In this document: piece by piece, positions 5,034 through 20,000 of the stretch
Numbering within the stretch: the first letter of the stretch is position 1
How the letters are laid out: every line of letters starts with the position of its first letter
Source of the DNA: an uncultured virus (IMG/VR IMGVR_UViG_3300000439_000022)
Taxonomy: Duplodnaviria; Heunggongvirae; Uroviricota; Caudoviricetes
Direction: 5' to 3' (one strand)
Virus record (IMG/VR): IMGVR_UViG_3300000439_000022
Length of the DNA: 20,000 bases
The notes under the pieces: generated by a model
Told to the model about the DNA's origin: nothing
Seen by the model: only the letters and a program-made list of their open reading frames with translations
Database searches by the model: none
Program-made: the position numbers and the translations under genes

Positions 5034-5044
5034 TAATAAATAAT

Positions 5045-5326: not shown

Positions 5327-5328
5327 TC

Positions 5329-5526: not shown

Positions 5527-5527
5527 A

Positions 5528-5559
5528 TTTGGTTGTTCCAAAATTGTTTCATATCTTTA
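5528..5559 (+). promoter_or_regulatory. Bacteroidota promoter variant
   Basis: TTTG 5528-5531, 20 nt, TATCTTTA 5552-5559. Confidence 0.6.
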
Positions 5560-5578
5560 TGTTCTCAAACAAAATCTT

Positions 5579-5905: not shown

Positions 5906-5907
5906 AA

Positions 5908-6204: not shown

Positions 6205-6314
6205 GAAAATCTCGATTCTGGCTTGAAGACTTGCCACTTGCATTATTATATATAATGTTTTTTGTTTGTATATTCTTATTTGGATATCTAACCTTCACAT
6301 CACTTATTAATTAA
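6201..6314 (+). CDS. single-TM microprotein (37 aa, MRKSRFWLEDLPLALLYIMFFVCIFLFGYLTFTSLIN)
   Basis: ATGA overlap with the previous gene; paralog of 3890-3988. Confidence 0.65.
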   Translation: MRKSRFWLEDLPLALLYIMFFVCIFLFGYLTFTSLIN

Positions 6315-6330
6315 TATAAAATATAATAAT

Positions 6331-6897: not shown

Positions 6898-6907
6898 CAT
6901 TACATAA

Positions 6908-8607: not shown

Positions 8608-8625
8608 TTGTAATGAAGAATTTTA

Positions 8626-8634
8626 TATAAATAT
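8626..8634 (-). promoter_or_regulatory. candidate phage late-type promoter motif ATATTTATA (TATAAATAT on +)
   Basis: 18 nt upstream of the inverted 397-aa gene, which lacks a TAnnTTTG promoter; the + strand reads as the T4 late consensus TATAAATA. Confidence 0.3.
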
Positions 8635-8665
8635 TTGGTATTTCGGTTAAAAACACATATCTTTG
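8634..8665 (+). promoter_or_regulatory. Bacteroidota promoter
   Basis: TTTG 8634-8637, 20 nt, TATCTTTG 8658-8665. Confidence 0.7.
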
Positions 8666-8706
8666 TGTTCAAAATCAATAAAAATAACAAAAATTCTCCC
8701 TCTATA

Positions 8707-8738
8707 TTTGTTTGAATTAAAAAAATTGTTTACCTTTA
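8707..8738 (+). promoter_or_regulatory. second, tandem Bacteroidota promoter variant
   Basis: TTTG 8707-8710, 20 nt, TACCTTTA 8731-8738. Confidence 0.55.
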
Positions 8739-8771
8739 TATTATGATACCAAAATTTACAAATATTAATAT

Positions 8772-9395
8772 ATGAAAGAAAAATTAATACAATTGGCAAG
8801 CTTTTGCCTGAATGACAAATCATTTTATAATCAAATGGTAATTTATAATCAAATGGTAATCTCAAAAAAAGATATCCAAAAGACCTTTGGTACAGGTTAT
8901 GAAACTTTTTATTCCCATAAAAGGGATTATAATATTGATAGCTCAACCATTCAACCCAAAGTTAGTGATAAGATTAAATCAACTATACTCAATACTTTTC
9001 ATGAAGAACTTCAAAAAAATAATGAGCCTATTGAGTGTACTATTCCAATGCTAACCATAAACTTTTCAGATATGCCACCGTTAAATATTTACAGGAGATA
9101 TTTGACAATAGGTCAAACTGATAAAGTTGGTTATGTTACTATAAATAAAAAAATACTGTTTTTTAATATTCCAAAAGTATATACCTTTAATTATACCGAA
9201 TATACTCGTGGTATTCAATATTTTATAAAATCAGCGACAGTTGAAGAACAAGTAACTGAAGAGGAATATTATAAACTAATTGATTTATATGACAAAACCT
9301 TTACTGAAGTTGAGGATGAGAATGCTCAACTAAAAATTAAAAATGATATATTAAAGGTTGATGAAAGATTATCCGTATATTTGCAAAATAAATAA
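8772..9395 (+). CDS. hypothetical protein, paralog of 6331..6897
   Basis: 207 aa; colinear shared motifs with 6331..6897. Confidence 0.8.
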   Translation: MKEKLIQLASFCLNDKSFYNQMVIYNQMVISKKDIQKTFGTGYETFYSHKRDYNIDSSTIQPKVSDKIKSTILNTFHEELQKNNEPIECTIPMLTINFSDMPPLNIYRRYLTIGQTDKVGYVTINKKILFFNIPKVYTFNYTEYTRGIQYFIKSATVEEQVTEEEYYKLIDLYDKTFTEVEDENAQLKIKNDILKVDERLSVYLQNK

Positions 9396-9402
9396 AAACA
9401 CA

Positions 9403-9945
9403 ATGTCAAAAACAATTGAAATATCCGATGAAATGTATGGCAAGTTAATTGAACTTGCAACGGAAATGACCACACAAAACCCAAGATGCACTCGTATGCC
9501 CCATATATTTCAAATTAGAAATTGGAAAAAGGTATACGATGCTGAATTGAATGGAGACATTCACATCTTTTTGGATAGAGGTAATGGTATTGAGATAGAA
9601 ACAGTCGAACAACTTATTAACTACCTGAATGATTCTAATGTCGAATTCGTTGAGGCGGAAGTTAAAGAGATGTGGGATAACCGTTCCGAATACTCATGGC
9701 AAGATGACCTTAAAGATTGGTTAGAGGAACGAGTTCCAGATCTTGAGGTATATTCATACTCATTAGTACCAGAATATACCAATTGTTTCTTAACAGCCAA
9801 GGCCGCTGAGGAACATCTTAAACTTAACCATTACCACTACCATGCGAATGCTGATGTTTATCTTAATCATGCCTGGAGAAACCCAGAAGCAGAATTAGTT
9901 AGCACATTCCTATGCAATTTGATTGGCAAAGATTTGCACACATAA
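9403..9945 (+). CDS. conserved phage hypothetical protein
   Basis: Track ORF 9358..9945; likely start MSKTIEISDE at 9403; TQNPRCT..P.IFQI and FLT.KAAEEHL..N.YHY motifs. Confidence 0.7.
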   Translation: MSKTIEISDEMYGKLIELATEMTTQNPRCTRMPHIFQIRNWKKVYDAELNGDIHIFLDRGNGIEIETVEQLINYLNDSNVEFVEAEVKEMWDNRSEYSWQDDLKDWLEERVPDLEVYSYSLVPEYTNCFLTAKAAEEHLKLNHYHYHANADVYLNHAWRNPEAELVSTFLCNLIGKDLHT

Positions 9946-10043
9946 TGTCCGTGGAAAACAAATATAAAACTAAAAAATTTATCGATGGTTGTATGTTAGC
10001 ATATAACGCAAAAGAAAATATTGATTTTCATTAAAATAACATT

Positions 10044-10232
10044 ATGACTTTAGAAGAAGCAAGAGTTGCAATTTCAGAGGGTAAAAAAGTAACCCACAGA
10101 TACTTCACCGATGATGAATATATTCACATGGGTAAGAACGGTATTTCCTTTGAGGATGGTGTTAAAGTCCCAGCTGATTGGTGGGACAAAGATTATTTAA
10201 AAACAGATTGGAGCATATATCAAAAAGATTAA
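10044..10232 (+). CDS. small phage protein, distantly DUF2829/Tad2-like
   Basis: MTLEEA..AI.EGKKVTHRYF ... terminal DW pattern. Confidence 0.45.
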   Translation: MTLEEARVAISEGKKVTHRYFTDDEYIHMGKNGISFEDGVKVPADWWDKDYLKTDWSIYQKD

Positions 10233-10233
10233 T

Positions 10234-10452
10234 ATGGAAAAGAAATATATAATAACTCAAGAACAATTTGAACAGATTGGACATTATAAAAGAATGTTCG
10301 AACTTAATGCACAATGCATATCAGACTTATGCAATTGCGAAAAAGATGATATTGTTTATGGTTTTGAACTTGGCAAAATGCATACACACCTCAGAGATTG
10401 TTATATTGAGATGATGGAGCTGGAAAATGAAATTAAGGAACAGAAAATGTGA
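10234..10452 (+). CDS. hypothetical protein
   Basis: 72-aa ORF starting 1 nt after the previous stop. Confidence 0.65.
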   Translation: MEKKYIITQEQFEQIGHYKRMFELNAQCISDLCNCEKDDIVYGFELGKMHTHLRDCYIEMMELENEIKEQKM

Positions 10453-10456
10453 AAAG

Positions 10457-10781
10457 ATGGAATATAAATTAACAAAAAAATATCAACATAGCAAAAAATG
10501 CAATGATAACAGAAGAAGAAATTTCTTAATCTTCTTCCTTAATGATATACAAATATTTAAACAAAAAGTTCCATATGATGAAAACTTTGACCATGGTTGC
10601 CAAAACAGAACATCATTTGATAATATCTATCTTTTAAACGGTTATATTAACCAAAAAAGACAATCTGATGCTAATGTTAGCTGTTTCGGAAATGAGAGAA
10701 GTAAAATATCCTGTATCAAAAAAGATATTGGAACAATTCAATATACCAAAAGATCTTAAAATTAAATTGTCAAATGATTAA
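10457..10781 (+). pseudogene. hypothetical protein, probably frameshifted
   Basis: The frame from ATG 10457 stops at 10759, while the +1 frame (open 10638-10781) gives a more protein-like tail (REVKYPVSKKILEQFNIPKDLKIKLSND) that overlaps the next start. Confidence 0.4.
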
Positions 10782-10977
10782 ATGTACAGATAAAGGCATG
10801 TGGACTTGTATCGGAAAAAACGGTACACCAAAAAAACAATTCCCAGATGATAAATCGGCAATATCTGCCGCCAAACTTATCAATGAGAATAACCCACAAC
10901 CATTTACAAAACTCGTTGCGTATAAATGCACACAATGTAACAAATATCATCTAACTACCAGAAATAAGAAAATTTAA
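10774..10977 (+). CDS. small zinc-ribbon phage protein
   Basis: C...KKQF.....A ... AYKCTQCNKYHLTT. Confidence 0.7.
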   Translation: MIKCTDKGMWTCIGKNGTPKKQFPDDKSAISAAKLINENNPQPFTKLVAYKCTQCNKYHLTTRNKKI

Positions 10978-10978
10978 T

Positions 10979-11290
10979 ATGAAAAGAGACTTAAAATTAT
11001 TGATGGTAATCTTATTAGCACCAATAATAATTATTAGTTGTAAAAATACGGATACGAAAACAATCTATTATAAAGAATCAACCGAATGTTTAATTTATGG
11101 CGATTCTTATACAACAACAGACATTACAATGATGCCGTCTGGAATACCTATGGGTGATGGATTATACCTAAGCTCAAGTGAACACCGACATTGTAATATT
11201 GAAAAAGTAGATGCAACTTGGTTCACGATAGATAGTAATTGGAATAGAATTATTGTTAAACAAACATCTTTTGAACGTAAACTAAATTAA
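10979..11290 (+). CDS. putative lipoprotein
   Basis: Signal peptide ending IIISC-KN. Confidence 0.65.
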   Translation: MKRDLKLLMVILLAPIIIISCKNTDTKTIYYKESTECLIYGDSYTTTDITMMPSGIPMGDGLYLSSSEHRHCNIEKVDATWFTIDSNWNRIIVKQTSFERKLN

Positions 11291-11301
11291 CAAAATTTAA
11301 A

Positions 11302-11565
11302 ATGAAAACCGAACAAGAAATAAAAGAATTAGCTAATAAGATATATAAACATGATGGCATAATCACAAGTGGATTAGATTATGAGATTGTGGATTCAATA
11401 CAAGATAAAAAGGAAGGTTTTGTACGTGCATACATGCTTGCTCAAACCGATATGCAAGCTCATTTTATAAATGAAGCTATTGGATTTGCAGAGTGGATAG
11501 TAGGTTTTATTGGACTTGTAATTGATGTAAAAGACATTTATAAACGCAAAAATAATAACATATGA
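11302..11565 (+). CDS. hypothetical protein
   Basis: 87-aa ORF, ATGA overlap with the next gene. Confidence 0.6.
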   Translation: MKTEQEIKELANKIYKHDGIITSGLDYEIVDSIQDKKEGFVRAYMLAQTDMQAHFINEAIGFAEWIVGFIGLVIDVKDIYKRKNNNI

Positions 11566-12224
11566 CACCATATAAATTAACGGATGAAAAAATACAATTC
11601 AATTTCAAAACACTTTACCGTATTGAATTAACAGAAGATTGCATATGGGGAAAAGCTGGAACAAAAGGTGGTTTTATTGAGAAAGTGAGTAACTTATTGG
11701 ATGATGCTTGGGTATCTGGTAATGCTCACGTATATGGTAATGCTTATGTATCTGGTAATGCTTGGGTATTAGGTAATGCTCAGGTATATGGTAATGCTCA
11801 CGTATCTGGTAATGCTCAGGTATTTGATAATGCTTGGGTATCTGGTAATGCTCACGTATCTGGTAATGCTCAGGTATTTGATAATGCTTGGGTATCTGGT
11901 AATGCTCACGTATATGGTAAATCTGAGGTATCTGGTAATGCTCAGGTATTAGGTAATGCTCAGGTATTTGGTAACGCTTTAGTTTCTGGTATGGTTGTAA
12001 TATGTGGTGAAGCTAAAGTTGAGAAAACATCAGATTATATGACAATATCCTCTTTGGGTAACACAAATAGGACAATAACCATTACATTTTCAGATAAAAT
12101 GATATCAGCTGGCTGTTTCAGAGGAACACTCCAACAATTTAAAACCGCCGTTGATGAAAAATACAACGGAAAAGGTAATTACTACCCAACAATACAATAT
12201 ATTGAAACATTATTTAATATGTAA
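11562..12224 (+). CDS. hexapeptide-repeat (left-handed beta-helix, YdcK-like) phage protein
   Basis: LYRI...G..GGFIE..NL N-terminus, 16 NAxVxG-type hexapeptides, AGCFRGTL..F C-terminus. Confidence 0.85.
   Translation: MTPYKLTDEKIQFNFKTLYRIELTEDCIWGKAGTKGGFIEKVSNLLDDAWVSGNAHVYGNAYVSGNAWVLGNAQVYGNAHVSGNAQVFDNAWVSGNAHVSGNAQVFDNAWVSGNAHVYGKSEVSGNAQVLGNAQVFGNALVSGMVVICGEAKVEKTSDYMTISSLGNTNRTITITFSDKMISAGCFRGTLQQFKTAVDEKYNGKGNYYPTIQYIETLFNM
11703..11990 (+). repeat. coding 18-bp tandem repeat x16
   Basis: Consensus aatgctNNNgtatNtggt; includes an exact 54-bp higher-order duplication (NAHVSG-NAQVFD-NAWVSG twice). Confidence 0.9.
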
Positions 12225-12230
12225 AATAAA

Positions 12231-12262
12231 TTTGGTGATATCAAATATGCATCTTATCTTTG
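12231..12262 (+). promoter_or_regulatory. Bacteroidota promoter
   Basis: TTTG 12231-12234, 20 nt, TATCTTTG 12255-12262. Confidence 0.75.
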
Positions 12263-12279
12263 TAATCTAAATCAATTTT

Positions 12280-12504
12280 ATGAAAAATCTATTTATCCCA
12301 ATTTTACTGTTACTACTATTATCCTCTTGTATTGATGTATATCAACCTGGTGACATGTATGTATCATCAATAAATGGTGTATATAAAAACAATATGTGTA
12401 ACTATTACATCAGTGGCTCTTATTCCGTTACAGATATAAAAATAAGTGACACCTGCGGCAAATTCATGGTTGGCGATAAATTAAATCTAACCAAATCTAA
12501 ATAA
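12280..12504 (+). CDS. putative lipoprotein
   Basis: MKNLFIPILLLLLLSSC lipoprotein signal. Confidence 0.7.
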   Translation: MKNLFIPILLLLLLSSCIDVYQPGDMYVSSINGVYKNNMCNYYISGSYSVTDIKISDTCGKFMVGDKLNLTKSK

Positions 12505-12514
12505 AACATTTAAC

Positions 12515-13222
12515 ATGTCAAAGAAAGAAAAACTCATTCAGTCATTATCAACTGTAATTTTAGCATTGGAAAATGATACAGTGCTATATAATTGGAAACA
12601 ACAAGCACAATGCAATTGTGGCCTCGTTGCTCAGGTTTTACTTGGTAAGAACCAATACGAATTGAAACATGAACTTAAAAAACAAGAATTATTCAATAAA
12701 AAAATATTAAAAGAAGCAATTGGTAGTGAAAACGGTACTTGGAGGGATGCCGTTAAAGCGTATTGCCCAATATCTCAAAGACCATTGAAACAAATCTTTA
12801 TTGATTTGGAAAATGCTGGTTTAAGCAAAGATGATATCTCCCATTTGGAATATATGAATAACCAAGCCATATTCGCCAAATCAGGTATTGAAAAAACAAA
12901 AAAATACAAAAAATCTGTTAACGTTGGTACCAAAAAAGTACCAGTTAATACATTCTTTGGTAAATTATTTCGCATCACCAAATCAGAACCTATATATGAA
13001 ACCAAAGAATTTGAGGAAAAATATGATTGGTTTGCCAACAAAGAAAATCTTATCAAATATTTAAAAGCCTGGGTTTTAATATTGAAAGATGAAAAAGAAT
13101 CGGTTGACTTTGATGATATTGATGCCTACAGCAAAAATGATCTTAATGAAAGATTATTGGTTGCCGTTGCTGATGAAGATTATTCTTTGGCCGCAAGACT
13201 TAGAGATGAAATAAACAAATAG
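12515..13222 (+). CDS. hypothetical protein with a C-terminal UVR (UvrB/UvrC) coiled-coil motif
   Basis: C-terminal LNERLLVAVADEDYSLAARLRDEI matches L...L..AV..EdYE.AA.LRD.I. Confidence 0.7.
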   Translation: MSKKEKLIQSLSTVILALENDTVLYNWKQQAQCNCGLVAQVLLGKNQYELKHELKKQELFNKKILKEAIGSENGTWRDAVKAYCPISQRPLKQIFIDLENAGLSKDDISHLEYMNNQAIFAKSGIEKTKKYKKSVNVGTKKVPVNTFFGKLFRITKSEPIYETKEFEEKYDWFANKENLIKYLKAWVLILKDEKESVDFDDIDAYSKNDLNERLLVAVADEDYSLAARLRDEINK

Positions 13223-13249
13223 GTGGCTTTATATCCCAAAGAAATCAAA

Positions 13250-14176
13250 ATGGAATACAAAAATTATAATCAAGAAATACCAGTAACAAGAGAAACAATA
13301 AATATGGAATACAAAAATTTTAGCCAATGGAGCATTTTAGGTGACGGTGGGTTTTTACCAGCAACAGCCTCACTGAACACATTACCCTCAGGATTATATG
13401 AAATAACATGGGACTATAAAGTTAATGATTTTTGTATGCTTTATCAGAAAATAAACACTGATGAATTATTTGAACTACCAACAGAGGAAATCGAAAATAT
13501 CCTCAAGGATATAAAATCATTTTGGAAAAAGAAAGACTTTTACCAACAATATAAACCCACGCATAAAAGAGGTATATTACTCCATGGTGATCCTGGATGT
13601 GGTAAATCTGGTATTATTCAACTTTGTATGAAGCAAATTATTAACGAACTCGAAGGTATCGTAATAAACCTCAAAGACGAAAATTCAATCAAAGGATATC
13701 TCGAACTAATCCCAAAATTTAGACAAATTGAACCCAATCGACCACTGATAGTAATTATCGAAGATATCGATTCGGTTGCCGAATATAGCAATGATTGCAC
13801 ATCAGCATTGCTAAATATCTTGGATGGCATAAAACAAATCGAAAACGTTGTTTATATCGCAACAACCAATTATCCAGAAAAATTAGCCGAAAGAATCACA
13901 AACAGACCATCCAGATTCGATAGAAGATATTACGTTTCACCACCATCAGAAGAAGTTAGAAAAGTCTATATCCTTAATAAAATTGGTGATAGCAAATCTG
14001 AAATTGATATAAATCGCTGGGTTAAAGACACAGAAGGCCTATCCATGTCACACCTAAAAGAACTATTTACATCCGTTGTTCTGCTCGATATAGAATATGA
14101 ATCAGCCATAGCACACCTCAAAGGAATGAAAAAAATACCAAGAGGAAAAGCACATAAAGAAATCGGATTTAAATAA
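13250..14176 (+). CDS. AAA+ ATPase (classical clade)
   Basis: Walker A GDPGCGKS, Walker B IIIEDID, SRH TTNYPEKL...RPSRFD; start at 13250 or 13304 (16-bp duplication atggaatacaaaaatt). Confidence 0.9.
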   Translation: MEYKNYNQEIPVTRETINMEYKNFSQWSILGDGGFLPATASLNTLPSGLYEITWDYKVNDFCMLYQKINTDELFELPTEEIENILKDIKSFWKKKDFYQQYKPTHKRGILLHGDPGCGKSGIIQLCMKQIINELEGIVINLKDENSIKGYLELIPKFRQIEPNRPLIVIIEDIDSVAEYSNDCTSALLNILDGIKQIENVVYIATTNYPEKLAERITNRPSRFDRRYYVSPPSEEVRKVYILNKIGDSKSEIDINRWVKDTEGLSMSHLKELFTSVVLLDIEYESAIAHLKGMKKIPRGKAHKEIGFK

Positions 14177-14216
14177 TCAAACCTATTATACCTTTACATC
14201 TTAAACTTTAGTTACA

Positions 14217-14387
14217 ATGACCAAAGCACAACAACTGGGGATAACAGAATTTCCATACCAAGAATTTGATTCCAACGGTAAACTTACTTATCATGAAGAT
14301 TCAACTGGGTCTTGGCATAAATTTGAATATGATTCCAACGGTAATGAAAGCTATTGGGAAATTTACCAGAATATGGCACCCATATGA
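14217..14387 (+). CDS. short DSNG-repeat phage protein, possibly truncated (56 aa)
   Basis: MTKAQQLGITEFPYQEFDSNGKLTYHEDSTGSWHKFEYDSNGNESYWE...; 15-bp direct repeat at 14267 and 14330 (21-aa period). Confidence 0.6.
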   Translation: MTKAQQLGITEFPYQEFDSNGKLTYHEDSTGSWHKFEYDSNGNESYWEIYQNMAPI

Positions 14388-14557
14388 CATTAGAAACCTT
14401 CATAGCAAACGTTAATTGTGGCGGATTTATCGACTATGACGGAATAGGTAACTACGCAACAAATACTCAAATGTCCAATATAGAAATATACCCAAGCGAT
14501 ATAAAATCTGGAACATACAGAAAAGATTTTACACATATAGTATGGTTTAATCGCTAA
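14354..14557 (+). CDS. hypothetical phage protein, possibly N-terminally truncated
   Basis: LPEYG..MTLETF...V..GGFIDYDG.G.YA motif; nearest ATG (14384) overlaps the upstream stop. Confidence 0.6.
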   Translation: MGNLPEYGTHMTLETFIANVNCGGFIDYDGIGNYATNTQMSNIEIYPSDIKSGTYRKDFTHIVWFNR

Positions 14558-14604
14558 TACACACACACACACAAATTTTAAATTAATATCTGAATTTTAC
14601 TAAT

Positions 14605-15966
14605 ATGTCAATCATCACAAGAAAAATTAAACTAATCCCAGTAGGAGAAACCAGCAAAGATAGAACAAAAGTCTATAACTTTATTAAAGATATATCCAAA
14701 GAACTCGCAACAGTAGGAAACCAAATTATTAGACAACACGTCAATAATAACTTTAACCTTAAAGAAATCCTTGATACAGAAAAATGTACCAAAAAAATTG
14801 CCGTGGAAAAACTTACAGCACAACTCACCACCTCAATCCAAAATAGCGGCTACAGAATAACCACCTCCCTACCACATATAGCATCAGACATCAGATCAAA
14901 TCTGAACCAAGATATATATAAAACCATAACCGAAAACTTCTACGATATACTAAATAATAAAGTATCAATCCCTTCCTACAAATCAGAAAAACTGCCAATC
15001 AGATTCTCAAATAAAATATATTTAGATAATAACAAATATCTAATAGATTTCCCAATCACACAAACACAAAAACAAAAATTTAATAATATATCATTCGAAC
15101 TCTTCTTCGGAAAAGATAAATCCAATAACAAAATTATTGTAAGAAAAACCATTACACAAGAATATAAAATGTGCAATAGCTCATTACAATATAACGGAAA
15201 AGATCTTTTCCTCTACCTAACAGTCAATATACCAGAAACAAAATCAAAAGATATCATCCCAAATAAAACAATGGGAATCGATATGGGCATCAATAGACCA
15301 GTCTCATTCTTTATCACAGATGAAGAAAAACAACCATACCAAATCGATATAAACTCCAAAATACAACACGATAGAATGAGAATGCTAAAACATAGACAAT
15401 CAATTGCAAAAGCTCTCAAACTAACAACTGGCGGTCACGGAAGAACCAAAAAACTTAAAGCACTCGAACAATTCAGAGATAAAGAAAAAAATTGGGCGCA
15501 AACCACAAACCATAGAATATCTGCCGAAATTATCAAAATAGCACAACAATATAACGTGGGTATCATAAAGATGGAAGACCTAACTGGAATCACCAAAGAT
15601 ACAAATAACCAATTCCTTAAATCTTGGGCTTACTTCCAACTGCAAACATATATCAAATATAAAGCAGAAATGGCTGGAATTACAATCCAATGGGTTAACC
15701 CAAAAAATACTTCCAGAGAATGCCCAACCTGCCACACAATCAATGAGGAAAATAGATCAAAACAAGACTATACCAAATTCGAATGCGTTAACACAGCTTG
15801 CACCGATTACCTAAAAACCCTCGATGCAGATATCGTGGCAGCAACAAATATAGCACACAAATTGGGACTGGAAGAAAAACCAAACTCAAAAGCTGGAAGA
15901 ATTAAAGCCGCTAAACTAAAAAAATCTCAAGAAATTCCTCAACAAAATTTGGAACTATCAATTTAA
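14605..15966 (+). CDS. cas12f: Cas12f-like (Cas14/TnpB-family) RNA-guided nuclease, 453 aa
   Basis: RuvC-I GIDMG (D226), RuvC-II MEDL (E324), zinc finger CPTC...C....C (C373/376/394/399), RuvC-III DADIVAATNIA (D409); ITRKIKL N-terminus; adjacent CRISPR array; no tnpA in the window. Confidence 0.88.
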   Translation: MSIITRKIKLIPVGETSKDRTKVYNFIKDISKELATVGNQIIRQHVNNNFNLKEILDTEKCTKKIAVEKLTAQLTTSIQNSGYRITTSLPHIASDIRSNLNQDIYKTITENFYDILNNKVSIPSYKSEKLPIRFSNKIYLDNNKYLIDFPITQTQKQKFNNISFELFFGKDKSNNKIIVRKTITQEYKMCNSSLQYNGKDLFLYLTVNIPETKSKDIIPNKTMGIDMGINRPVSFFITDEEKQPYQIDINSKIQHDRMRMLKHRQSIAKALKLTTGGHGRTKKLKALEQFRDKEKNWAQTTNHRISAEIIKIAQQYNVGIIKMEDLTGITKDTNNQFLKSWAYFQLQTYIKYKAEMAGITIQWVNPKNTSRECPTCHTINEENRSKQDYTKFECVNTACTDYLKTLDADIVAATNIAHKLGLEEKPNSKAGRIKAAKLKKSQEIPQQNLELSI

Positions 15967-15979
15967 TTCACTACATTTG
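15948..15979 (+). promoter_or_regulatory. Bacteroidota promoter for the guide-RNA locus
   Basis: TTTG 15948-15951 (inside the cas 3' end), 20 nt, TACATTTG 15972-15979. Confidence 0.75.
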
Positions 15980-15983
15980 TAAC

Positions 15984-16164
15984 ATAATTAATAGCTCTTA
16001 ATTTATTGATAAAATAAGGTTCCAAATTAATATTTGGATCGTGCTGGCTGTACAGCATAAGGTGAACAATGAATAAACATTGTAAATATTTTAATATGTT
16101 AGGAGGAATTATCCTCACTCACCAAATACCTTTTAAACTTATACCACCTAAAGGTATATACAAC
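15984..16164 (+). ncRNA. putative tracrRNA/omegaRNA-like scaffold fused to a half-repeat
   Basis: Hairpins TCCAAAT/ATTTGGA (16021-16038), GTGCTG/CAGCAT (16041-16058), ACAATG/CATTGT (16066-16083) and GAGGA/TCCTC (16103-16116), the last two enclosed by GGTGA/TCACC (16061-16123); anti-repeat ATACCTTTTAAA at 16126-16137; 5' end inferred from the promoter. Confidence 0.7.
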
Positions 16165-16359
16165 ACATTTCCAAAACGTTTTACCAAAACAATGGTGTAA
16201 AAGACCACAATTTGAAAGGTATATACAACATAGAACAGATCAACCATAACGCAGAAGTGGTGTAAAAGACCACAATTTGAAAGGTATATACAACCCTGAA
16301 CAAAACCCATTAATTCATCCACTGGTGTAAAAGAACACAATTAAAAAGGTATATACAAC
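16150..16359 (+). CRISPR. mini CRISPR array: half-repeat plus 3 repeats, 3 spacers
   Basis: Repeat GGTGTAAAAGACCACAATTTGAAAGGTATATACAAC (36 bp; 37 if the shared preceding T is counted) at 16194-16229, 16259-16294 and 16324-16359 (last has 3 mismatches); 15-bp 3' half at 16150-16164; unique 29-nt spacers at 16165-16193, 16230-16258 and 16295-16323; 65-bp period. Confidence 0.95.
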
Positions 16360-16378
16360 AAATACCAGCCTTTTTTTT
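16343..16378 (+). terminator. possible intrinsic terminator at the array end
   Basis: GGTAT/ATACC stem (16348-16366) using the last repeat, followed by T8 at 16371-16378. Confidence 0.45.
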
Positions 16379-16528
16379 ATATCTATCTGTATTCAGATCA
16401 ATAAAATTAATACTAAATTAATGCCTTTTAATACCGAGAATATATTATAGATAAAAACATATGAATTCTATAGAAATATACTCATCTGTATTCATTATGT
16501 AAACCCTTGCTAATCAAGCATTTATGAG

Positions 16529-16564
16529 GTGTGGAAAAGTGGTAAATTGTGGTAGAAAATGGTA
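16529..16564. repeat. 10-bp-phased (G)TGGTA direct repeats, MraZ-box/iteron-like
   Basis: GTGT 16529, GTGG 16539, GTGG 16549, ATGG 16559 in non-coding AT-rich DNA. Confidence 0.55.
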
Positions 16565-16710
16565 AAAAAAAATAGTGAATACAATACAAAGAATTTGACA
16601 CCCTCTCCTATTTAACAAATATTTTTTTTAATTATATGTAATTCTTTGAATTCTGCGCCCCATTCCTACCCCTTACATGAATACATATAATTTTTTGTTA
16701 TATGAATTCT

Positions 16711-17223
16711 TTACTTTAGTTGAATGCTTCTAAGTTTCATTATTTTGTCTGTGAATTCTCTGGCCAGGTCTACTTTGAATACATCGAGTTTGTCTTGAGC
16801 TTTTTGTTTATCTGATGTAATGATTCTGGTTCTATCTTCGTATGAGTAGCTTACAGGTTCCCAGGATATAGCGATATTAATGGGATCATATATATTATTT
16901 TTTTCATTTAGGAATACTGTATAGTGTTTGGAGTATATCTCACCGAATTTATATATTTTGTGTGGTACATATAATAATTCATTAATCTTTGCGATATCGT
17001 CTTTGGATTCGAATGTGCATGAATCCACTATATTGTCTGAGTACATGTAGAACTCATTTGTGGGTGGTGTGATTAATCTTTTTTTATTGAGATATTGGGT
17101 TGTGCTTATATAGGCCAGATCACCGTCATTATTTATAATGGGTACATATAGTTCAAGTACCTGGCTATATATGGGTTCATCGAATGTTCTCTTTGATTTC
17201 AATATTTCATTAATATGTAGCAT
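16711..17223 (-). CDS. hypothetical protein
   Basis: 170-aa ORF with its own upstream promoter. Confidence 0.7.
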   Translation of the reverse strand: MLHINEILKSKRTFDEPIYSQVLELYVPIINNDGDLAYISTTQYLNKKRLITPPTNEFYMYSDNIVDSCTFESKDDIAKINELLYVPHKIYKFGEIYSKHYTVFLNEKNNIYDPINIAISWEPVSYSYEDRTRIITSDKQKAQDKLDVFKVDLAREFTDKIMKLRSIQLK

Positions 17224-17239
17224 TCAGTTTTATTTTGCA

Positions 17240-17271
17240 CAAAATTAATGAATTTACTATTATTATACAAA
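17240..17271 (-). promoter_or_regulatory. Bacteroidota promoter
   Basis: On -: TTTG (17271-17268), 20 nt, TAATTTTG (17247-17240). Confidence 0.7.
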
Positions 17272-17298
17272 TATGAATTATTGTAATATGAATAGATT

Positions 17299-17338
17299 AA
17301 AAAATATATCCCAGCATTCAATTATACTGGGATATATT
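17299..17338 (-). terminator. intrinsic terminator
   Basis: 12-bp perfect stem AATATATCCCAG/CTGGGATATATT (17303-17338) followed by a T-run on -; lies downstream of 17356..17895. Confidence 0.75.
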
Positions 17339-17355
17339 GTTATTGAGGGGTTATA

Positions 17356-17895
17356 TTACCAGGAAGATGAGTAGTAGAAGCTACCGCCTTCTTCAGTTAG
17401 TAGTGGTTCTAATTGTTGTATAGTATCTTTTAGGTCATTGATATAGTATTCATCGTATTGGGTTGAGCCGAAGAAGAAGCCAGATTGTGTTGGTAATAGT
17501 TCTTCAGCCAGTTCTGTGTTTTCTGCCACTTCAACATCTGTTTGTTCATCTGAATGCCATCCAGTTTCAACTTGGATAGTTTTTTTGGGAGAGTTTTCCA
17601 AACTGGCTAATACTTTTTTGCAGGTTTCTACCAGTTCTTTAAGTTGGTCTAAACCGACATAGTGTTCTCCACAATCATCTTCACCGTCTTGTACATTTTG
17701 GACAAACCAATTGTGAATTTGATTTGCTTTTCGCCAGTAAGCAACTTCTTCAATAATTGTGCTTATGCGATTGGTTTTAATGGTTGGATGTTCTTTACCG
17801 TTTTGCATTACGGTAATATTAACCCTTTGTTCATCTGAATGATGTTCCCAATTTTTTACATAAGTGTGCTTATGCAAATACATGTCTAAACCCAT
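17356..17895 (-). CDS. conserved phage hypothetical protein (MGLDMYL/YWRKANQIH family)
   Basis: MGLDMYL, EVAYWRKANQIHNWF, GFFFGSTQYDEYY and terminal YYSSSW motifs, widespread in phages. Confidence 0.85.
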   Translation of the reverse strand: MGLDMYLHKHTYVKNWEHHSDEQRVNITVMQNGKEHPTIKTNRISTIIEEVAYWRKANQIHNWFVQNVQDGEDDCGEHYVGLDQLKELVETCKKVLASLENSPKKTIQVETGWHSDEQTDVEVAENTELAEELLPTQSGFFFGSTQYDEYYINDLKDTIQQLEPLLTEEGGSFYYSSSW

Positions 17896-17926
17896 AGTAT
17901 ATTATTTTGTTTTTGAAATTTGACTA

Positions 17927-17958
17927 CAAAGATATTCTTTATAATTGAAATCATCAAA
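17927..17958 (-). promoter_or_regulatory. Bacteroidota promoter
   Basis: On -: TTTG (17958-17955), 20 nt, TATCTTTG (17934-17927). Confidence 0.75.
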
Positions 17959-17999
17959 TTATTATACAGATATATTTTAATGTAATATGTTTATAATAA

Positions 18000-18033
18000 T
18001 AAAAGAAAAGAGCCACCGTAGACACGGCAGCTC
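18000..18033 (-). terminator. intrinsic terminator
   Basis: On -: GAGCTGCCGT-GTCT-ACGGTGGCTC then TTTTCTTTT. Confidence 0.85.
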
Positions 18034-18059
18034 CATATTTAAAACAAAACAAACAGATA

Positions 18060-18665
18060 TTAAATATTGTCATTATCTTCTTCTTCTTCGGATGAATCGT
18101 CATCCCAATTGTCATCATCGAAATCCCCATCGTATTCAATGAATATAATAACGAGAGCAATATATTCTTGTTCAGCTGAATCCTTTTCACCTGTGCAGAT
18201 ATATGATCCGTCACCCCAGCCAGATGAGCTAACAACGCCGTAAGGTACTGTACCCCATCCATCTTCGCCTAAGGTTTGTGCTGCGCAAGCTCTATACCAT
18301 TCATCACCAGGTTTTTCAGCATAATTATCTTCAAATTCTTTGGGTAAATCTTTTGCAATCTCATCATCACGGTAATATTTTTGGTCAAAGAAACCAGCTT
18401 GTCCAGAGTCAACTCCGACAACGAAGGGAAGTTCCCCACCTTTGTAAGCCAGATCAATGATATTGGAATTCTTGAGGTAGGCTTCATTGTTATAGGCGTA
18501 TATGGATTTTATACGTCCATTATCATTCATGTCCACCCCTGCTGTCCAAAGACCAGGTTTTACATTTGGGATTATCCCTTGGCACCAGGTTGGTGGATCT
18601 ATTGTATAACATGGGTCACTTACCACCATGGCACCTGAATCGATTTTAAAGGTTTTTTGCATCAT
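18060..18665 (-). CDS. DUF4241-like protein with an acidic tail
   Basis: SG...VSDPCY, GVDSGQAGFFD and SSGWGDGSY motifs. Confidence 0.75.
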   Translation of the reverse strand: MMQKTFKIDSGAMVVSDPCYTIDPPTWCQGIIPNVKPGLWTAGVDMNDNGRIKSIYAYNNEAYLKNSNIIDLAYKGGELPFVVGVDSGQAGFFDQKYYRDDEIAKDLPKEFEDNYAEKPGDEWYRACAAQTLGEDGWGTVPYGVVSSSGWGDGSYICTGEKDSAEQEYIALVIIFIEYDGDFDDDNWDDDSSEEEEDNDNI

Positions 18666-18671
18666 ATGAAT

Positions 18672-18779
18672 TTATCTCCTTTTTTTGGGGGATTTTATTT
18701 TTGGTTGCGCTTTTTGTTTGCTACCTGTCTTAACTACCTTATAGGAATTTTTACTAATTTTAACTACTCTTTTTGCCAT
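18672..18779 (-). CDS. highly basic microprotein (35 aa, MAKRVVKISKNSYKVVKTGSKQKAQPKIKSPKKRR)
   Basis: Hand-translated; sits between a consensus promoter and the DUF4241-like gene. Confidence 0.6.
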   Translation of the reverse strand: MAKRVVKISKNSYKVVKTGSKQKAQPKIKSPKKRR

Positions 18780-18789
18780 TCTAATTTTA

Positions 18790-18821
18790 CAAATTTAAAG
18801 GTTAATAAATTATGATACAAA
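18790..18821 (-). promoter_or_regulatory. Bacteroidota promoter
   Basis: On -: TTTG (18821-18818), 20 nt, TAAATTTG (18797-18790). Confidence 0.7.
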
Positions 18822-18860
18822 TATGTTTTATAGTAATATGTTTATAGGGGCTGGGTAATG

Positions 18861-19334
18861 TTAGTGGGATTCTACTATTTCAGGTTTTTTAACCCATTCA
18901 AGGAATTCTTTTGGGGTACCTTCGAATAGTACTTTATTTCGTTTAGACCCAATACTTTTACATTTGAGGATTAATGATCGCTCGTTATAGTTGAAGTTTG
19001 TACCTTCATCGACAATAACATCGTAGGCGTAATCCTCCCACACATTTGTGGTACCAGGTTTGTAGAGGTAAATATCACCAGGGGTGTCACCTTTGAAGTG
19101 TGAGACAATTTGTGCGGCGAGGCATCCAATGCCGTTAAATAATTGTAGGTTATCTTTGGATAAACCGATTCCGTTAACAAGTTTGCCAGAGGCAAGGAAC
19201 CGAGCAAGCTCAGTTCCGTGGCCTTTAGGGTACCCATCGAATTGACGGTACATTGTTGCAATTTTGTTTGTACGTACTTTGGAATCTTTATCCGTATACT
19301 TTCGGATAATGTTAGTTAGAGATCTTGTTCCCAT
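18861..19334 (-). CDS. conserved phage hypothetical protein (MGTRS/YRQFDGYP family)
   Basis: MGTRSLT, MYRQFDGYP.GHG.ELA.FL and NG.GCLAAQ...HFK motifs. Confidence 0.85.
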   Translation of the reverse strand: MGTRSLTNIIRKYTDKDSKVRTNKIATMYRQFDGYPKGHGTELARFLASGKLVNGIGLSKDNLQLFNGIGCLAAQIVSHFKGDTPGDIYLYKPGTTNVWEDYAYDVIVDEGTNFNYNERSLILKCKSIGSKRNKVLFEGTPKEFLEWVKKPEIVESH

Positions 19335-19363
19335 TTTTGTTTTGATTTTAAATGTTAAATATA

Positions 19364-19708
19364 CTATTTTGATTTGGATTCGAATAATTTCCTTAGGGAT
19401 TGTTCTTGGGCAATTTTTTCTTTTACATCTTTTGCCGTTAGTCTATTAGCATAATCGAAATGCCATGCGTCCCATAATTGTATATGAACCAGTTCCAGTG
19501 GTTTGATTGAAGCAACCATATACATTGCGTAGCCATCTGCCACTGGGAATTTAATTGTCTCACCAACATGTTCGGTGGGATTCCTATTGCGTAAAAGATC
19601 TTTGAGGTCTGACAGGTATTTGTCGCAGGCCACATGATAACCTTTAATATTACCAAAATTTAAATCAGGAAGCTTTGGATCCTTGGGAGCAGAATAGATT
19701 TTTGCCAT
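19364..19708 (-). CDS. conserved phage hypothetical protein
   Basis: 114 aa; GE.I.FPVADGYA.YMV motif. Confidence 0.75.
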   Translation of the reverse strand: MAKIYSAPKDPKLPDLNFGNIKGYHVACDKYLSDLKDLLRNRNPTEHVGETIKFPVADGYAMYMVASIKPLELVHIQLWDAWHFDYANRLTAKDVKEKIAQEQSLRKLFESKSK

Positions 19709-19727
19709 TTCGTTTTGTTTTAGGATA

Positions 19728-19758
19728 CAAAGATAATCACAATATTGATACCTCCAAA
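19728..19758 (-). promoter_or_regulatory. Bacteroidota promoter
   Basis: On -: TTTG (19758-19755), 19 nt, TATCTTTG (19735-19728). Confidence 0.75.
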
Positions 19759-19798
19759 TTTATTTAATACATATTTTTAAAAATATATGTTGATATAA

Positions 19799-19830
19799 CT
19801 TGTTTTAGTTAAAAATTGTTAGTACTTTTG
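19799..19830 (+). promoter_or_regulatory. divergent Bacteroidota promoter
   Basis: CTTG 19799-19802, 20 nt, TACTTTTG 19823-19830; ATG at 19836. Confidence 0.6.
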
Positions 19831-19835
19831 TATGT

Positions 19836-20000
19836 ATGAAAAAAATGATTGTATTTGTTATGTTAGCAGGGATGCTAAGCGTAACCGCTACAGCTCAGTC
19901 AGCTCACAAAGTTGATTCAGCTAAAGTAAAGACTGATAAGACAGTTAAGCCAGTTGTTAAGCCAGCTGTAAAACCAACAACACCAGTGAAGCATGAAGCT
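19836..20000 (+). CDS. secreted low-complexity protein, 3'-truncated by the window edge
   Basis: MKKMIVFVMLAGMLSVTATA|QSAHK: Sec signal with Gln at +1 (Bacteroidota Q-rule), then VKP repeats. Confidence 0.7.
   Translation, partial: MKKMIVFVMLAGMLSVTATAQSAHKVDSAKVKTDKTVKPVVKPAVKPTTPVKHEA

What the first reader, a model, noticed from the sequence alone, without database searches (positions are those of the whole stretch)
15984..16193. Natural single-guide architecture: tracr-like scaffold fused in cis to a half-repeat and spacer 1, and also able to pair in trans with full repeats
Seen: the first array unit keeps only the last 15 nt of the repeat (AAAGGTATATACAAC, 16150-16164). ATACCTTT (16126-16133) pairs with its AAAGGTAT (16150-16157) across a 16-nt loop, so scaffold, handle and spacer 1 form one contiguous RNA like an engineered sgRNA or a TnpB omegaRNA. 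The longer anti-repeat ATACCTTTTAAA also gives 12 bp (one G-U) with TTTGAAAGGTAT, which exists only in full repeats. At least four hairpins and a GGTGA/TCACC-closed multiloop lie upstream. Known: type V systems arose from TnpB, with the omegaRNA splitting into tracrRNA and crRNA. Inference: this locus may use both fused and split guides, as a TnpB-to-Cas12 intermediate or a secondary re-fusion.
Basis: partly seen in the sequence, partly recalled or inferred. Interest (0 to 1): 0.9.

Follow-up and report, generated by a model that had tools for sequence, protein, structure and literature searches.

The report
Phage Cas12f with built-in single guide
A small phage-borne CRISPR nuclease gene is followed by a guide-RNA scaffold already joined to a shortened repeat and its first spacer, a natural "single guide" that many relatives share and that resembles guide forms already described for related enzymes.

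Summary
Window 14605-15966 encodes a 453-aa Cas12f1/V-U3-family nuclease with an intact RuvC triad and zinc finger. Downstream on the same strand lies a structured scaffold (core 16039-16134). Its helices covary across 37 homologous copies. The anti-repeat (16126-16133) folds onto a 15-nt repeat tail (16150-16164), which runs straight into a 29-nt spacer. Three full 36-nt repeats and two more spacers follow.

The half-repeat is not random decay. Of 64 distinct homologous scaffold copies, 45 have a truncated first repeat fused close to the anti-repeat, 6 have a full first repeat, and 9 have a degenerate variant. The fused guide differs even between loci whose proteins are identical.

The 16-nt "loop" holds a second anti-repeat segment. 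Full repeats therefore pair much better in silico (-17.1 kcal/mol) than the half-repeat (-7.8 kcal/mol), so both modes are possible on paper.

Expression, processing and targets could not be tested. A tracrRNA/half-repeat fusion is already published for nuclease-dead Cas12f relatives, and dual guide use for TranC. I rate this a new variant of a known kind. An outgroup suggests secondary re-fusion rather than a primary TnpB-to-Cas12 intermediate.

The parts
14605..15966 (+). Gene for a 453-aa Cas12f1/V-U3-family RNA-guided nuclease (P0001)
   Evidence: PADLOC Cas12u3 1.9e-90 and Cas12f 5.4e-88, both nearly full length. NCBIfam guided_TnpB 152.9 bits, above its cut-off of 100. Pfam Cas12f1-like TNB 1.4e-14. 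Best solved relative is Al3Cas12f 9NZO, 5e-51. D226, E324, D409 and C373/C376/C394/C399 are invariant in 40 homologues.
15948..15979 (+). Candidate Bacteroidota-type promoter: TTTG 15948-15951, 20 nt, then TACATTTG 15972-15979. This would put the transcript start near 15985.
   Evidence: Read from the sequence. TAnnTTTG lies between -110 and -20 of 19 of 46 homologous scaffold copies, against 117 of 1785 background 90-nt windows. The consensus itself is recalled; the term appears in Bacteroides promoter papers seen only as a search listing. Inference, not shown.
15985..16038 (+). Probable 5' part of the RNA, with hairpin 'stem 0' (16021-16027 paired with 16032-16038)
   Evidence: Folds. A hairpin abutting stem 1 is predicted in most copies outside the short-tail clade, with different sequences. 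The 5' boundary is not determined.
16039..16134 (+). Scaffold core (tracrRNA/omegaRNA-like): stem 1 16041-46/16053-58 with loop GCTGTA 16047-52; closing helix GGTGA 16061-65 / TCACC 16119-23; stem 2 16066-71/16078-83; stem 3 16103-07/16112-16; start of the anti-repeat
   Evidence: Covariance model R1 hit of 81.3 bits, E 7e-14, the only hit in the window. On 37 copies, 93.5% of cells are paired against 73.0% in shuffles, and 164 cells change on both sides against 59 (0 of 500 shuffles; slid controls 48% or less).
16126..16146 (+). Two-part anti-repeat: ATACCTTTTAAA (16126-16137) and TTATACC (16140-16146)
   Evidence: Duplex with full repeat R2/R3 is -17.1 kcal/mol (12 bp + 7 bp), against -7.8 with the half-repeat. 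Loop against the 5' part of its own repeat is -8.2, against -4.2 +/- 1.7 for shuffled loops (1.7% of shuffles as good).
16150..16164 (+). 5'-truncated first repeat (15-nt handle) fused in cis. 16150-16157 pairs with 16126-16133. Its end TACAAC could form a pseudoknot with the stem-1 loop, with one C.A mismatch here.
   Evidence: On 29 fused copies the hairpin has 97.6% of cells paired and 3 of 6 pairs change on both sides. The pseudoknot has 97.1% paired and one pair switches A-U to U-A in L083 and L088.
16165..16193 (+). Spacer 1 (29 nt), directly 3' of the fused handle
   Evidence: Same length as spacers 2 and 3. The corresponding first guide differs between loci with near-identical scaffolds, for example L048 and L049, whose proteins are identical. 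No target found.
16194..16323 (+). Repeat 2 (16194-16229), spacer 2 (16230-16258), repeat 3 (16259-16294), spacer 3 (16295-16323)
   Evidence: No targets found.
16324..16359 (+). Terminal, degenerate repeat 4 (3 mismatches), with no spacer after it
   Evidence: Degeneracy at this end fits + strand polarity with the guide 3' of each repeat.
16360..16378 (+). AAATACCAGCC followed by T8 (16371-16378): possible end of the transcript
   Evidence: A weak hairpin between repeat 4 and the T run, but z is only -1.52 (14 of 200 shuffles as good), and the consensus scan did not call a + strand terminator. Suggestive only.

Best explanation
The locus is a compact type V-F1-like (Cas12f1/V-U3 family) CRISPR system. 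It sits in what looks like a large phage, probably of a Bacteroidota host.

The likely mechanism is this. One + strand transcript starts just after the nuclease gene, near 15985. It contains a roughly 150-nt structured scaffold whose anti-repeat folds back over a 16-nt loop onto a 15-nt remnant of the first repeat. That remnant runs directly into spacer 1. Scaffold, handle and guide therefore form one RNA: a natural single guide, comparable to a TnpB omegaRNA or an engineered Cas12f sgRNA. The 8-bp hairpin is too short to be an obvious RNase III substrate, so this guide probably stays in one piece.

Spacers 2 and 3 follow full 36-nt repeats. These repeats can pair with the same anti-repeat plus a second segment hidden in the 'loop' (12 + 7 bp). 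This could happen on another scaffold molecule, or by alternative folding of the same transcript. Each scaffold would then be loaded with one of three guides.

Shown here: the anatomy, the covariation of the scaffold, the conservation of the fused first unit across relatives, and the in-silico pairing energies.

Inferred: the transcription start and end, the absence of processing, loading into the nuclease, DNA cleavage, and the use of both modes.

In evolutionary terms the fused unit most likely arose when a tracrRNA-adjacent first repeat was shortened, a partial collapse back to a single guide. It is less likely to be a leftover of the original omegaRNA.
For: Protein:
- Cas12f1/V-U3 profile matches over the full length.
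- Catalytic and zinc-finger residues are invariant.
- The nearest solved structure is Al3Cas12f.

Scaffold:
- Model R1 gives 86 matches at E<=0.01 in 73 sources. All are on the strand of the nuclease gene, and there is one in the window.
- Helices covary strongly. Examples: GGTGA/TCACC becomes AGTGA/TCACT, and CCTGA/TCAGG in L090.

Fused unit:
- I took 82 of the 86 matches. The four left out were three cut at contig ends and one at 26.9 bits.
- These collapse to 64 distinct copies. Of those, 45 have a truncated first repeat 13-54 nt after the anti-repeat.
- By my reading, 18 of the 45 are followed by full repeats, as in the window, and 27 by short tails or nothing.
- The pairing is kept while loop length varies from about 5 to 25 nt. 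Compensatory changes occur, for example ATACCTTT/AAAGGTAT against ATACTAT/ATAGTAT in L076.
- Fused units occur in both deepest clades of the protein tree. The window's own clade (window, L044, L045, L046; support 100/100) is entirely fused-plus-array.
- First guides differ between near-identical scaffolds.

Dual pairing:
- Energies are -17.1 kcal/mol with a full repeat against -7.8 with the half-repeat.
- In a fold of the whole transcript the anti-repeat takes a full repeat.
- Loops match the 5' part of their own repeats better than permuted ones: sum -61.4 against -44.3 +/- 6.7, with 0.44% of permutations as low.

Polarity:
- The degenerate repeat lies at the 3' end and is followed by T8.
- A promoter-like TAnnTTTG lies upstream.

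Precedent:
- A half-repeat fused to tracrRNA, and omegaRNA arrays, were proposed for a Cas12f1-derived Bacteroidota clade (PMC10691335, section 12 read).
- Single chimeric guides were found by RIP-seq for dCas12f (PMC12259090, passages read).
Against: - No RNA evidence of any kind.
- No target for any of the three spacers: not in the window, not among exact 20-mers in IMG/VR, and not in GenBank phages. Interference activity is therefore unsupported.
- Covariation between the anti-repeat and the fused tail cannot by itself separate cis from trans pairing, because tail and full repeats evolve together within a locus.
- The many copies are related to one another. The counts (45 of 64) and the permutation test overstate independence.
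- The cis hairpin in the window is weak (8 bp, -6.2 to -7.8 kcal/mol) and is out-competed in silico by full repeats.
- The terminator-like fold is not significant.
- Six homologous copies have a full first repeat, so the truncation is not obligatory.
- No cas1/cas2/cas4 in the 20 kb, so how spacers are acquired is unexplained.
Confidence: 0.62

Rival explanations
1. This is an ordinary dual-RNA Cas12f system. The tracrRNA gene simply abuts the array and the first repeat has lost its 5' part by deletion. Spacer 1 is unused, or is used only after ordinary tracr:crRNA pairing and processing. The cis hairpin has no role of its own.
For: The outgroup loci L124/L125 have a split tracrRNA with a full first repeat 12 nt downstream. 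Six ingroup copies also start with a full repeat. Full repeats pair far better with the anti-repeat than the half-repeat does. The loop keeps complementarity to the 5' part of the full repeat, as expected of a normal long anti-repeat.
Against: The truncation recurs in 45 of 64 distinct copies and in several protein clades. The tail always keeps exactly the part that pairs with the anti-repeat and the stem-1 loop. In 27 copies there is no full repeat at all, so only the fused or short form is available. The first guide turns over like a spacer. Spacer 1 keeps the 29-nt unit length.
Confidence: 0.2
2. The fused unit is a primary relic. The family would be a direct TnpB-to-Cas12 intermediate (TranC-like) in which the original omegaRNA still carries its own guide, and the array grew by duplication of its 3' end.
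For: Fused units are present in both deepest clades of the family. In L003/L006/L048-L054 the downstream scaffold overlaps the 3' end of the ORF, as omegaRNAs do. L003 has a scaffold plus guide and no array downstream. The protein passes NCBIfam's guided_TnpB model. The published model says arrays arise from omegaRNA segments (PMC10691335, passages), and TranC has been described (Jin et al. 2025, seen only as cited).
Against: The protein scores as Cas12f1/V-U3 over its full length. Its closest outgroup is a canonical split system. No TnpA and no transposon ends were seen in the 20 kb. The window's loop holds a second anti-repeat segment matched to the 5' end of the full repeat, which fits descent from a full-length anti-repeat. 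The full repeat's 5' 21 nt shows no likeness to the scaffold (read).
Confidence: 0.13
3. The fused guide is a regulatory natural single guide, like tracr-L of Cas9. It would direct the nuclease to a partly matching site to control expression rather than to cleave invaders.
For: A natural sgRNA with that role exists for Cas9 (Workman 2021; recalled, and seen only in the reference list). In the 'class X' relatives the roughly 31 nt after a degenerate handle (TTCACAAY) are conserved between loci, unlike a spacer.
Against: In the window, spacer 1 has no match elsewhere in the 20 kb with up to 3 mismatches in 20 nt or up to 2 in 14 nt. First guides of the window's type vary between close relatives. 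The rest of the contig could not be searched.
Confidence: 0.04
4. The array is read from the - strand, so the 'half-repeat' is merely the far end of the array.
For: None was found. Generic promoter-like matches occur on both strands at chance level.
Against: All 86 scaffold matches are on the + strand of their loci. The anti-repeat, pseudoknot and closing helix only work in the + sense. The degenerate repeat and the T8 run lie at the + strand 3' end.
Confidence: 0.01

Closest known systems
Cas12f1 / type V-F1 (formerly V-U3) dual-RNA systems, e.g. Al3Cas12f (PDB 9NZO), AsCas12f
   Same: Protein family. A multi-stem scaffold with an anti-repeat, and pairing between the repeat's 3' end and a scaffold loop. 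The array lies downstream on the same strand. Engineered sgRNAs for these enzymes join a trimmed tracrRNA 3' end to a trimmed repeat 5' end through a tetraloop (PMC13186708, methods passage). That is what this locus does naturally.
   Different: Here the joint is encoded in the genome for the first unit, with a 16-nt loop in place of a tetraloop. Full repeats follow in the same array. No cas1/cas2/cas4 nearby. Phage context.
Single chimeric guide RNAs of nuclease-dead Cas12f (dCas12f-sigmaE / 'Sigma-TnpB') and the proposed fusion of a half direct repeat with the tracrRNA
   Same: Altae-Tran et al. 2023 (PMC10691335, section 12) propose this sequence for a Cas12f1-derived Bacteroidota clade: array minimised to a half direct repeat next to the tracrRNA, then fusion into a re-emerged omegaRNA, then duplication into omegaRNA arrays. 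Hoffmann et al. 2025 (PMC12259090, passages) found single guides by RIP-seq and describe the dual guide 'collapsing again'. The relatives seen here show the same stages: a fused half-repeat, and tandem whole-scaffold units in L077-L079.
   Different: The window's nuclease keeps all catalytic residues. There is no rpoE or HTH partner in the 20 kb. The fused unit coexists with full repeats and 29-nt spacers in one array. The solved dCas12f (9N9C) is a more distant relative (3.7e-20) than active Cas12f (5e-51).
TranC (transposon-CRISPR intermediates; Jin et al., Cell 2025)
   Same: Small TnpB-like effectors with short arrays and no adaptation genes, some of them in phages. They are reported to be guided by split tracrRNA/crRNA derived from the right-end RNA (as summarised).
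   Different: The paper itself is not held, so clade membership and whether it shows a genomically fused first unit could not be checked. This protein scores as Cas12f1/V-U3, not as a novel clade.
TnpB omegaRNA (IS200/IS605)
   Same: Scaffold and guide in one RNA just 3' of the gene. Pseudoknot between the guide-proximal end and an upstream loop. In some relatives the scaffold overlaps the ORF's 3' end.
   Different: No TnpA or transposon ends seen. The guide is followed by CRISPR repeats and further spacers rather than by flanking DNA.
tracr-L, the natural single guide of Streptococcus pyogenes Cas9 (Workman et al. 2021; recalled)
   Same: A tracrRNA form that folds on itself to give a natural single guide.
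   Different: Different effector family. tracr-L is regulatory and has a short partial match to its own promoter. No such match was found here.

Membership tests
Cas12f1 (type V-F1 / V-U3) | Full-length profile match to the family | tested here: met
   PADLOC Cas12u3 302 bits (residues 3-420) and Cas12f 294 bits. NCBIfam has only a Cas12f2 model, which scores 98.7 against a cut-off of 450 and is not met; guided_TnpB scores 152.9 against a cut-off of 100.
Cas12f1 (type V-F1 / V-U3) | Intact RuvC D-E-D triad and zinc-finger (TNB) domain | tested here: met
   D226, E324, D409 and C373, C376, C394, C399 are invariant in 40 sequences. PF07282 1.4e-14.
Cas12f1 (type V-F1 / V-U3) | Adjacent CRISPR array, and a tracrRNA whose anti-repeat pairs with the repeat | tested here: met
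   Three full repeats plus one truncated repeat. Anti-repeat:repeat duplex -17.1 kcal/mol. Covarying scaffold. All of this is in silico.
Cas12f1 (type V-F1 / V-U3) | Works as an asymmetric homodimer on one guide RNA | not tested
   No fold or complex job was run.
Cas12f1 (type V-F1 / V-U3) | RNA-guided, PAM-dependent cleavage of double-stranded DNA | not testable with these tools
   No protospacer was found from which to read a PAM.
TnpB / omegaRNA of IS200/IS605 | Lies in a transposon with TnpA and/or defined ends, with the guide being the DNA flanking the right end | tested here: not met
   No transposase other than the nuclease itself among 18 neighbouring ORFs (Pfam) or 19 ORFs (PHROGs). 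Spacer 1 is followed by repeats and other spacers. Transposon ends were not searched for specifically.
TnpB / omegaRNA of IS200/IS605 | Single RNA with the scaffold and the guide at its 3' end | tested here: inconclusive
   The DNA encodes such an arrangement for spacer 1, and it is conserved. The RNA itself was not observed.
dCas12f-sigmaE (Sigma-TnpB) | Inactivated RuvC with C-terminal truncation, and a linked rpoE gene | tested here: not met
   The catalytic residues are present. No sigma-factor family among the neighbours.
TranC | Membership of one of the published TranC clades | not testable with these tools
   The defining paper is not held. The supplements of the preprint that lists clades are closed.

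The most novel reading that the evidence does not exclude
This is a family of nuclease-competent Cas12f enzymes of large phages. Its guide genes show, in living genomes, every step between a dual-RNA CRISPR array and omegaRNA-like single guides:
- a full first repeat placed next to the tracrRNA;
- a truncated first repeat fused into a natural single guide and still followed by full repeats (the window);
- arrays made only of 13-20-nt handles at irregular spacing;
- tandem copies of the whole scaffold plus guide.

In the window's form, one scaffold per transcript would choose among three guides by mutually exclusive folding. The cis guide would be favoured kinetically and the full-repeat guides thermodynamically. 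Guides would be renewed without any Cas1-Cas2, by recombination between phages.
Probability: 0.3. Interest if true: 0.75.

Novelty: new variant of a known kind. Interest (0 to 1): 0.6.

Why it matters
If the fused RNA works as encoded, nature has already made single-guide RNAs for an active miniature Cas12f. The loops that evolution tolerates (about 5-25 nt, with handles of 13-16 nt) are ready-made designs for compact genome editors.

The family would also give a testable series for a much-discussed question: how omegaRNA, tracrRNA/crRNA and chimeric guides interconvert. Here that could be studied with an intact nuclease rather than the nuclease-dead exapted forms in which re-fusion has been described.

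It also raises the question of how phage mini-arrays without adaptation genes renew their guides.

Tried and rejected
- Rfam at gathering threshold: no family in the window. No tRNA.
- Own assembly not held. The nearest virus record, G001, shares window k-mers but has no relative of the nuclease, and 11000-20000 has only three short matches there. It gave no insertion boundaries.
- GenBank phages: no match to 14000-17000. At E<=10 the array gave only chance-level hits, E 2 or worse.
- A single-protein scan of IMG/VR found nothing. The alignment-based scan was needed.
- Spacer targets: none in the window. None as exact 20-mers in IMG/VR.
- An all-guides-against-all-loci BLAST of 259 guides gave 5 hits of 20 nt or more. 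Four are repeat artefacts. One (L082 against L006) is an A-rich gene-start match after a terminal repeat, which I rejected after reading both sites.
- The terminator after repeat 4 is not significant.
- My first motif regex was mistyped and found nothing; corrected.
The window's contig record is not searchable. The TranC paper is not held.
- The Cas-delta paper and the 'Cas12 hacker' paper turned out to concern other families.
- No structure prediction, fold search or complex job was run.
Full report
**Observation.**
- A 453-aa ORF (14605-15966, + strand) is followed by a non-coding stretch and a short array.
- The full repeat is 36 nt (GGTGTAAAAGACCACAATTTGAAAGGTATATACAAC) at 16194-16229 and 16259-16294. 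A third copy at 16324-16359 has three mismatches.
- Only the last 15 nt of the repeat stand before spacer 1, at 16150-16164.
- All three spacers are 29 nt.
- ATACCTTT (16126-16133) is complementary to AAAGGTAT (16150-16157) across 16 nt.
- The longer ATACCTTTTAAA pairs over 12 bp, with one G-U, with TTTGAAAGGTAT, which only full repeats carry.
- The repeat tail occurs four times in the 20 kb, all of them here, against 0.28 expected.

**The gene.**
- The protein is a Cas12f1/V-U3-family nuclease. PADLOC Cas12u3 scores 1.9e-90 and Cas12f 5.4e-88, both nearly full length.
- Pfam Cas12f1-like TNB scores 1.4e-14. NCBIfam guided_TnpB is above its cut-off, while the only Cas12f model there (Cas12f2) is far below its own.
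- The best solved relative is 9NZO/9NZR at 5e-51. That entry is Al3Cas12f, from a contig assigned to Alistipes (PMC13186708, passages and section 8 read).
- In an alignment of 40 homologues the RuvC residues D226, E324, D409 and four zinc-finger cysteines are invariant. An active nuclease is therefore expected.
- The neighbouring ORFs match PHROG families of unknown function, an AAA ATPase and a beta-solenoid protein. There is no cas1, cas2, cas4, TnpA or sigma factor.
- The nearest held record is an IMG/VR virus fragment. Relatives lie on viral contigs of 246-311 kb. A large phage is therefore the likely context.

**The scaffold is real.**
- Homologues of the protein were collected from IMG/VR, metagenomes and species genomes.
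- Downstream and upstream of their genes the same non-coding element recurs.
- An alignment of 37 copies (A3) supports four helices: stem 1, a closing helix (GGTGA/TCACC in the window), stem 2 with an AATAAA loop, and stem 3.
- In that alignment 93.5% of cells pair, against 73.0% in shuffles. 164 cells change on both sides, against 59. No shuffle of 500 reaches these values, and slid controls stay at 48% or less.
- A covariance model built from the alignment (R1) finds 86 matches at E<=0.01 in 73 sources, every one on the strand of the nuclease gene. It finds exactly one in the window, at 16039-16134 (81.3 bits). More distant TnpB/Cas12f loci in the same search gave nothing except one match of 26.9 bits.
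- The window's own fold reproduces these helices and the cis hairpin (z -4.48).
- The loop of stem 1 (GTTGTA in most copies, GCTGTA in the window) is complementary to the repeat's last six bases (TACAAC). Across 29 copies this pairing holds in 97.1% of cells. It switches A-U to U-A in L083 and L088, where the loop is GTTGTT and the tail AACAAC. In L004 the pair is GTTGTG with CACAAC.
- Such a pseudoknot between the repeat's 3' end and the tracrRNA is described as general for Cas12 tracrRNAs (bioRxiv 10.1101/2025.01.20.633832, passage).

**The half-repeat is conserved, not decayed.**
- I took 82 of the 86 matches. The four left out were three cut at contig ends and one at 26.9 bits. With 150 nt of downstream sequence they collapse to 64 distinct copies.
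- 45 have a first repeat reduced to its 3' tail, ending 13-54 nt after the anti-repeat.
- 6 begin with a full repeat: L054 upstream copy, L057, L090, two in L004, and L063. In L063 a 23-nt handle sits after an 8-nt loop.
- 9 have a hairpin, a degenerate tail TTCACAAY and about 31 conserved nucleotides before the array ('class X').
- One (L081) has only a remnant, one is a weak match, and two have too little sequence downstream.
- By my reading, 18 of the 45 are followed by full repeats, as in the window. The other 27 are followed by short tails only or by nothing. L003 has scaffold, handle and guide with no array.
- Across 29 fused copies the anti-repeat:tail hairpin pairs in 97.6% of cells, and three of six pairs change on both sides. 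The loop meanwhile varies from about 5 to 25 nt.
- A protein tree was built from 46 rows. Duplicates, fragments and L092, which has an internal stop, were left out. It places fused units in both deepest clades. The window groups with L044, L045 and L046 (100/100), all of the same type. The short-tail loci form one derived clade (100/100).
- First guides differ between near-identical scaffolds. L048 and L049 have identical proteins but different downstream arrays. L066 and L067, and L077 and L078, differ in single first guides.
- These copies are related to one another, so the counts are not independent events.

**Both pairing modes are possible in silico.**
- The anti-repeat region (16123-16149) binds the half-repeat at -7.8 kcal/mol.
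- It binds full repeats R2/R3 at -17.1. This is because TTATACC (16140-16146), inside the '16-nt loop', pairs with GGTGTAA at the 5' end of the full repeat.
- In a fold of the whole presumed transcript the anti-repeat takes a full repeat rather than the half-repeat.
- Over 11 loci of this type, loops match the 5' part of their own repeat better than permuted partners: sum -61.4 against -44.3 +/- 6.7, with 0.44% of permutations as low. For the window alone the values are -8.2 against -4.2 +/- 1.7. Relatedness inflates this test.
- The scaffold thus seems built for full repeats as well. This fits use of both forms, but it equally fits descent from an ordinary long anti-repeat.

**Polarity and ends.**
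- The degenerate repeat lies at the 3' end and has no spacer after it. A T8 run follows (16371-16378). The hairpin before the run is weak (z -1.52), and the consensus scan calls no + strand terminator.
- Directly after the stop codon lies TTTG-N20-TACATTTG (15948-15979). I recall this as the Bacteroidota promoter pattern; the term TAnnTTTG occurs in Bacteroides promoter papers that I saw only as a listing.
- TAnnTTTG stands between -110 and -20 of 19 of 46 scaffold copies, mostly near -60 to -75, against 117 of 1785 background windows.
This is an inference.
- One relative lies on a contig of a Flavobacteriaceae MAG (L123).

**What could not be shown.**
- No RNA data could be reached.
- No spacer has a target in the window, in IMG/VR as an exact 20-mer, or in GenBank phages. 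A screen of 259 guides against all fetched loci gave nothing credible.
- Expression, processing, loading and interference therefore remain inferences.

**Comparison with what is known.**
- Altae-Tran et al. 2023 (PMC10691335, section 12 read in full) describe a Bacteroidota clade derived from Cas12f1. In their scenario the array was minimised to a half direct repeat next to the tracrRNA, the two fused into a re-emerged omegaRNA, and whole omegaRNAs then duplicated into arrays. They also mention Cas12f1 and V-U40-43 groups with arrays resembling omegaRNA arrays.
- Hoffmann et al. 2025 (PMC12259090, passages) showed by RIP-seq that nuclease-dead Cas12f homologues use single chimeric guides. They speak of the dual guide 'collapsing again'.
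- TranC systems (Jin et al. 2025) are cited as intermediates in which the right-end RNA is split. I could not read that paper.
- Engineered Cas12f sgRNAs are made by trimming and joining the tracrRNA and the repeat.
- The idea is therefore in print. What I did not find in print is this combination: an intact nuclease, a phage setting, a fused first unit together with full repeats in one array, and the range of forms within one family. The supplements of the papers cited may bear on this and were not seen.

**Origin.**
- The closest outgroup loci (L124/L125, Bacteroidaceae MAGs, 31-33% identity) have a tracrRNA whose long anti-repeat matches the full repeat, and a full first repeat only 12 nt further on (read by eye).
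- Together with the Cas12f1 assignment and the second anti-repeat segment in the window, this favours shortening of a tracr-adjacent first repeat over a primary relic.
- Against that, fused units occur in both basal clades, and in one clade the scaffold overlaps the ORF end like an omegaRNA. The question stays open.

**Verdict.**
- The reading as a natural single guide is well supported as conserved anatomy but untested as RNA biology.
- It is a new variant of a known kind. Interest 0.6.

Noticed in passing
L003:1519-1700, L006:1987-2170, L051:1291-1470, L060:1301-1480; also L001, L002, L055, L056, L058/L059 upstream copies: 'Class X' scaffolds. After the anti-repeat come a T/A-rich hairpin, a degenerate handle TTCACAAY and about 31 nt that are conserved between loci (for example ATGTTGATTCGTAATAAGATGGGTTAACCAT). 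Only then does the array begin. A conserved 'first guide' might be a regulatory guide or a leader.
   Followed up: partly
L077:3374-4280, L078:1727-2215, L079:3378-3865, L066:2010-3242, L067: Three or four tandem copies of the whole scaffold, each with its own fused guide, interspersed with 13-20-nt repeat tails at irregular spacing (about 17-60 nt). This resembles the 'omegaRNA arrays' mentioned in PMC10691335, but the nuclease gene looks intact.
   Followed up: partly
L003, L006, L048, L049, L051, L054 (both sides of the gene): These phage loci carry two guide modules for one nuclease gene. Upstream is a scaffold plus a longer array. Downstream is a short-loop fused single guide whose scaffold overlaps the last roughly 60 nt of the ORF.
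   Followed up: partly
L048 versus L049 (downstream arrays): The nuclease proteins are identical in the tree, but the downstream spacers and repeat variants are entirely different. This suggests that whole arrays are exchanged by recombination.
   Followed up: no
window 15993-16010 and the equivalent place in relatives: A motif (A)GTTC(T/A)TTGA(A/C)ATATT lies 29-65 nt before many scaffold cores, between the promoter-like TAnnTTTG and stem 0. The window has a diverged form (AGCTCTTAATTTATTGA). Its role is unknown.
   Followed up: partly
window 14559-14574: A (CA)8 microsatellite about 30 nt upstream of the nuclease start codon.
   Followed up: no
window 1-11000 versus 11000-20000: The nearest held virus record (G001, 49 kb, CheckV completeness 16%) shares 67% of the window's sampled k-mers. 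It has no relative of the nuclease, and 11000-20000 has only three short matches there. Either the shared part lies elsewhere in the window or the genomes are mosaic.
   Followed up: partly
window 11562-12224 and 7414-8607: A YdcK-type beta-solenoid repeat protein (PHROG 7964, 1e-61). On the - strand there is a 397-aa protein with a weak ART-PolyVal (ADP-ribosyltransferase) match that falls below Pfam's cut-off.
   Followed up: no
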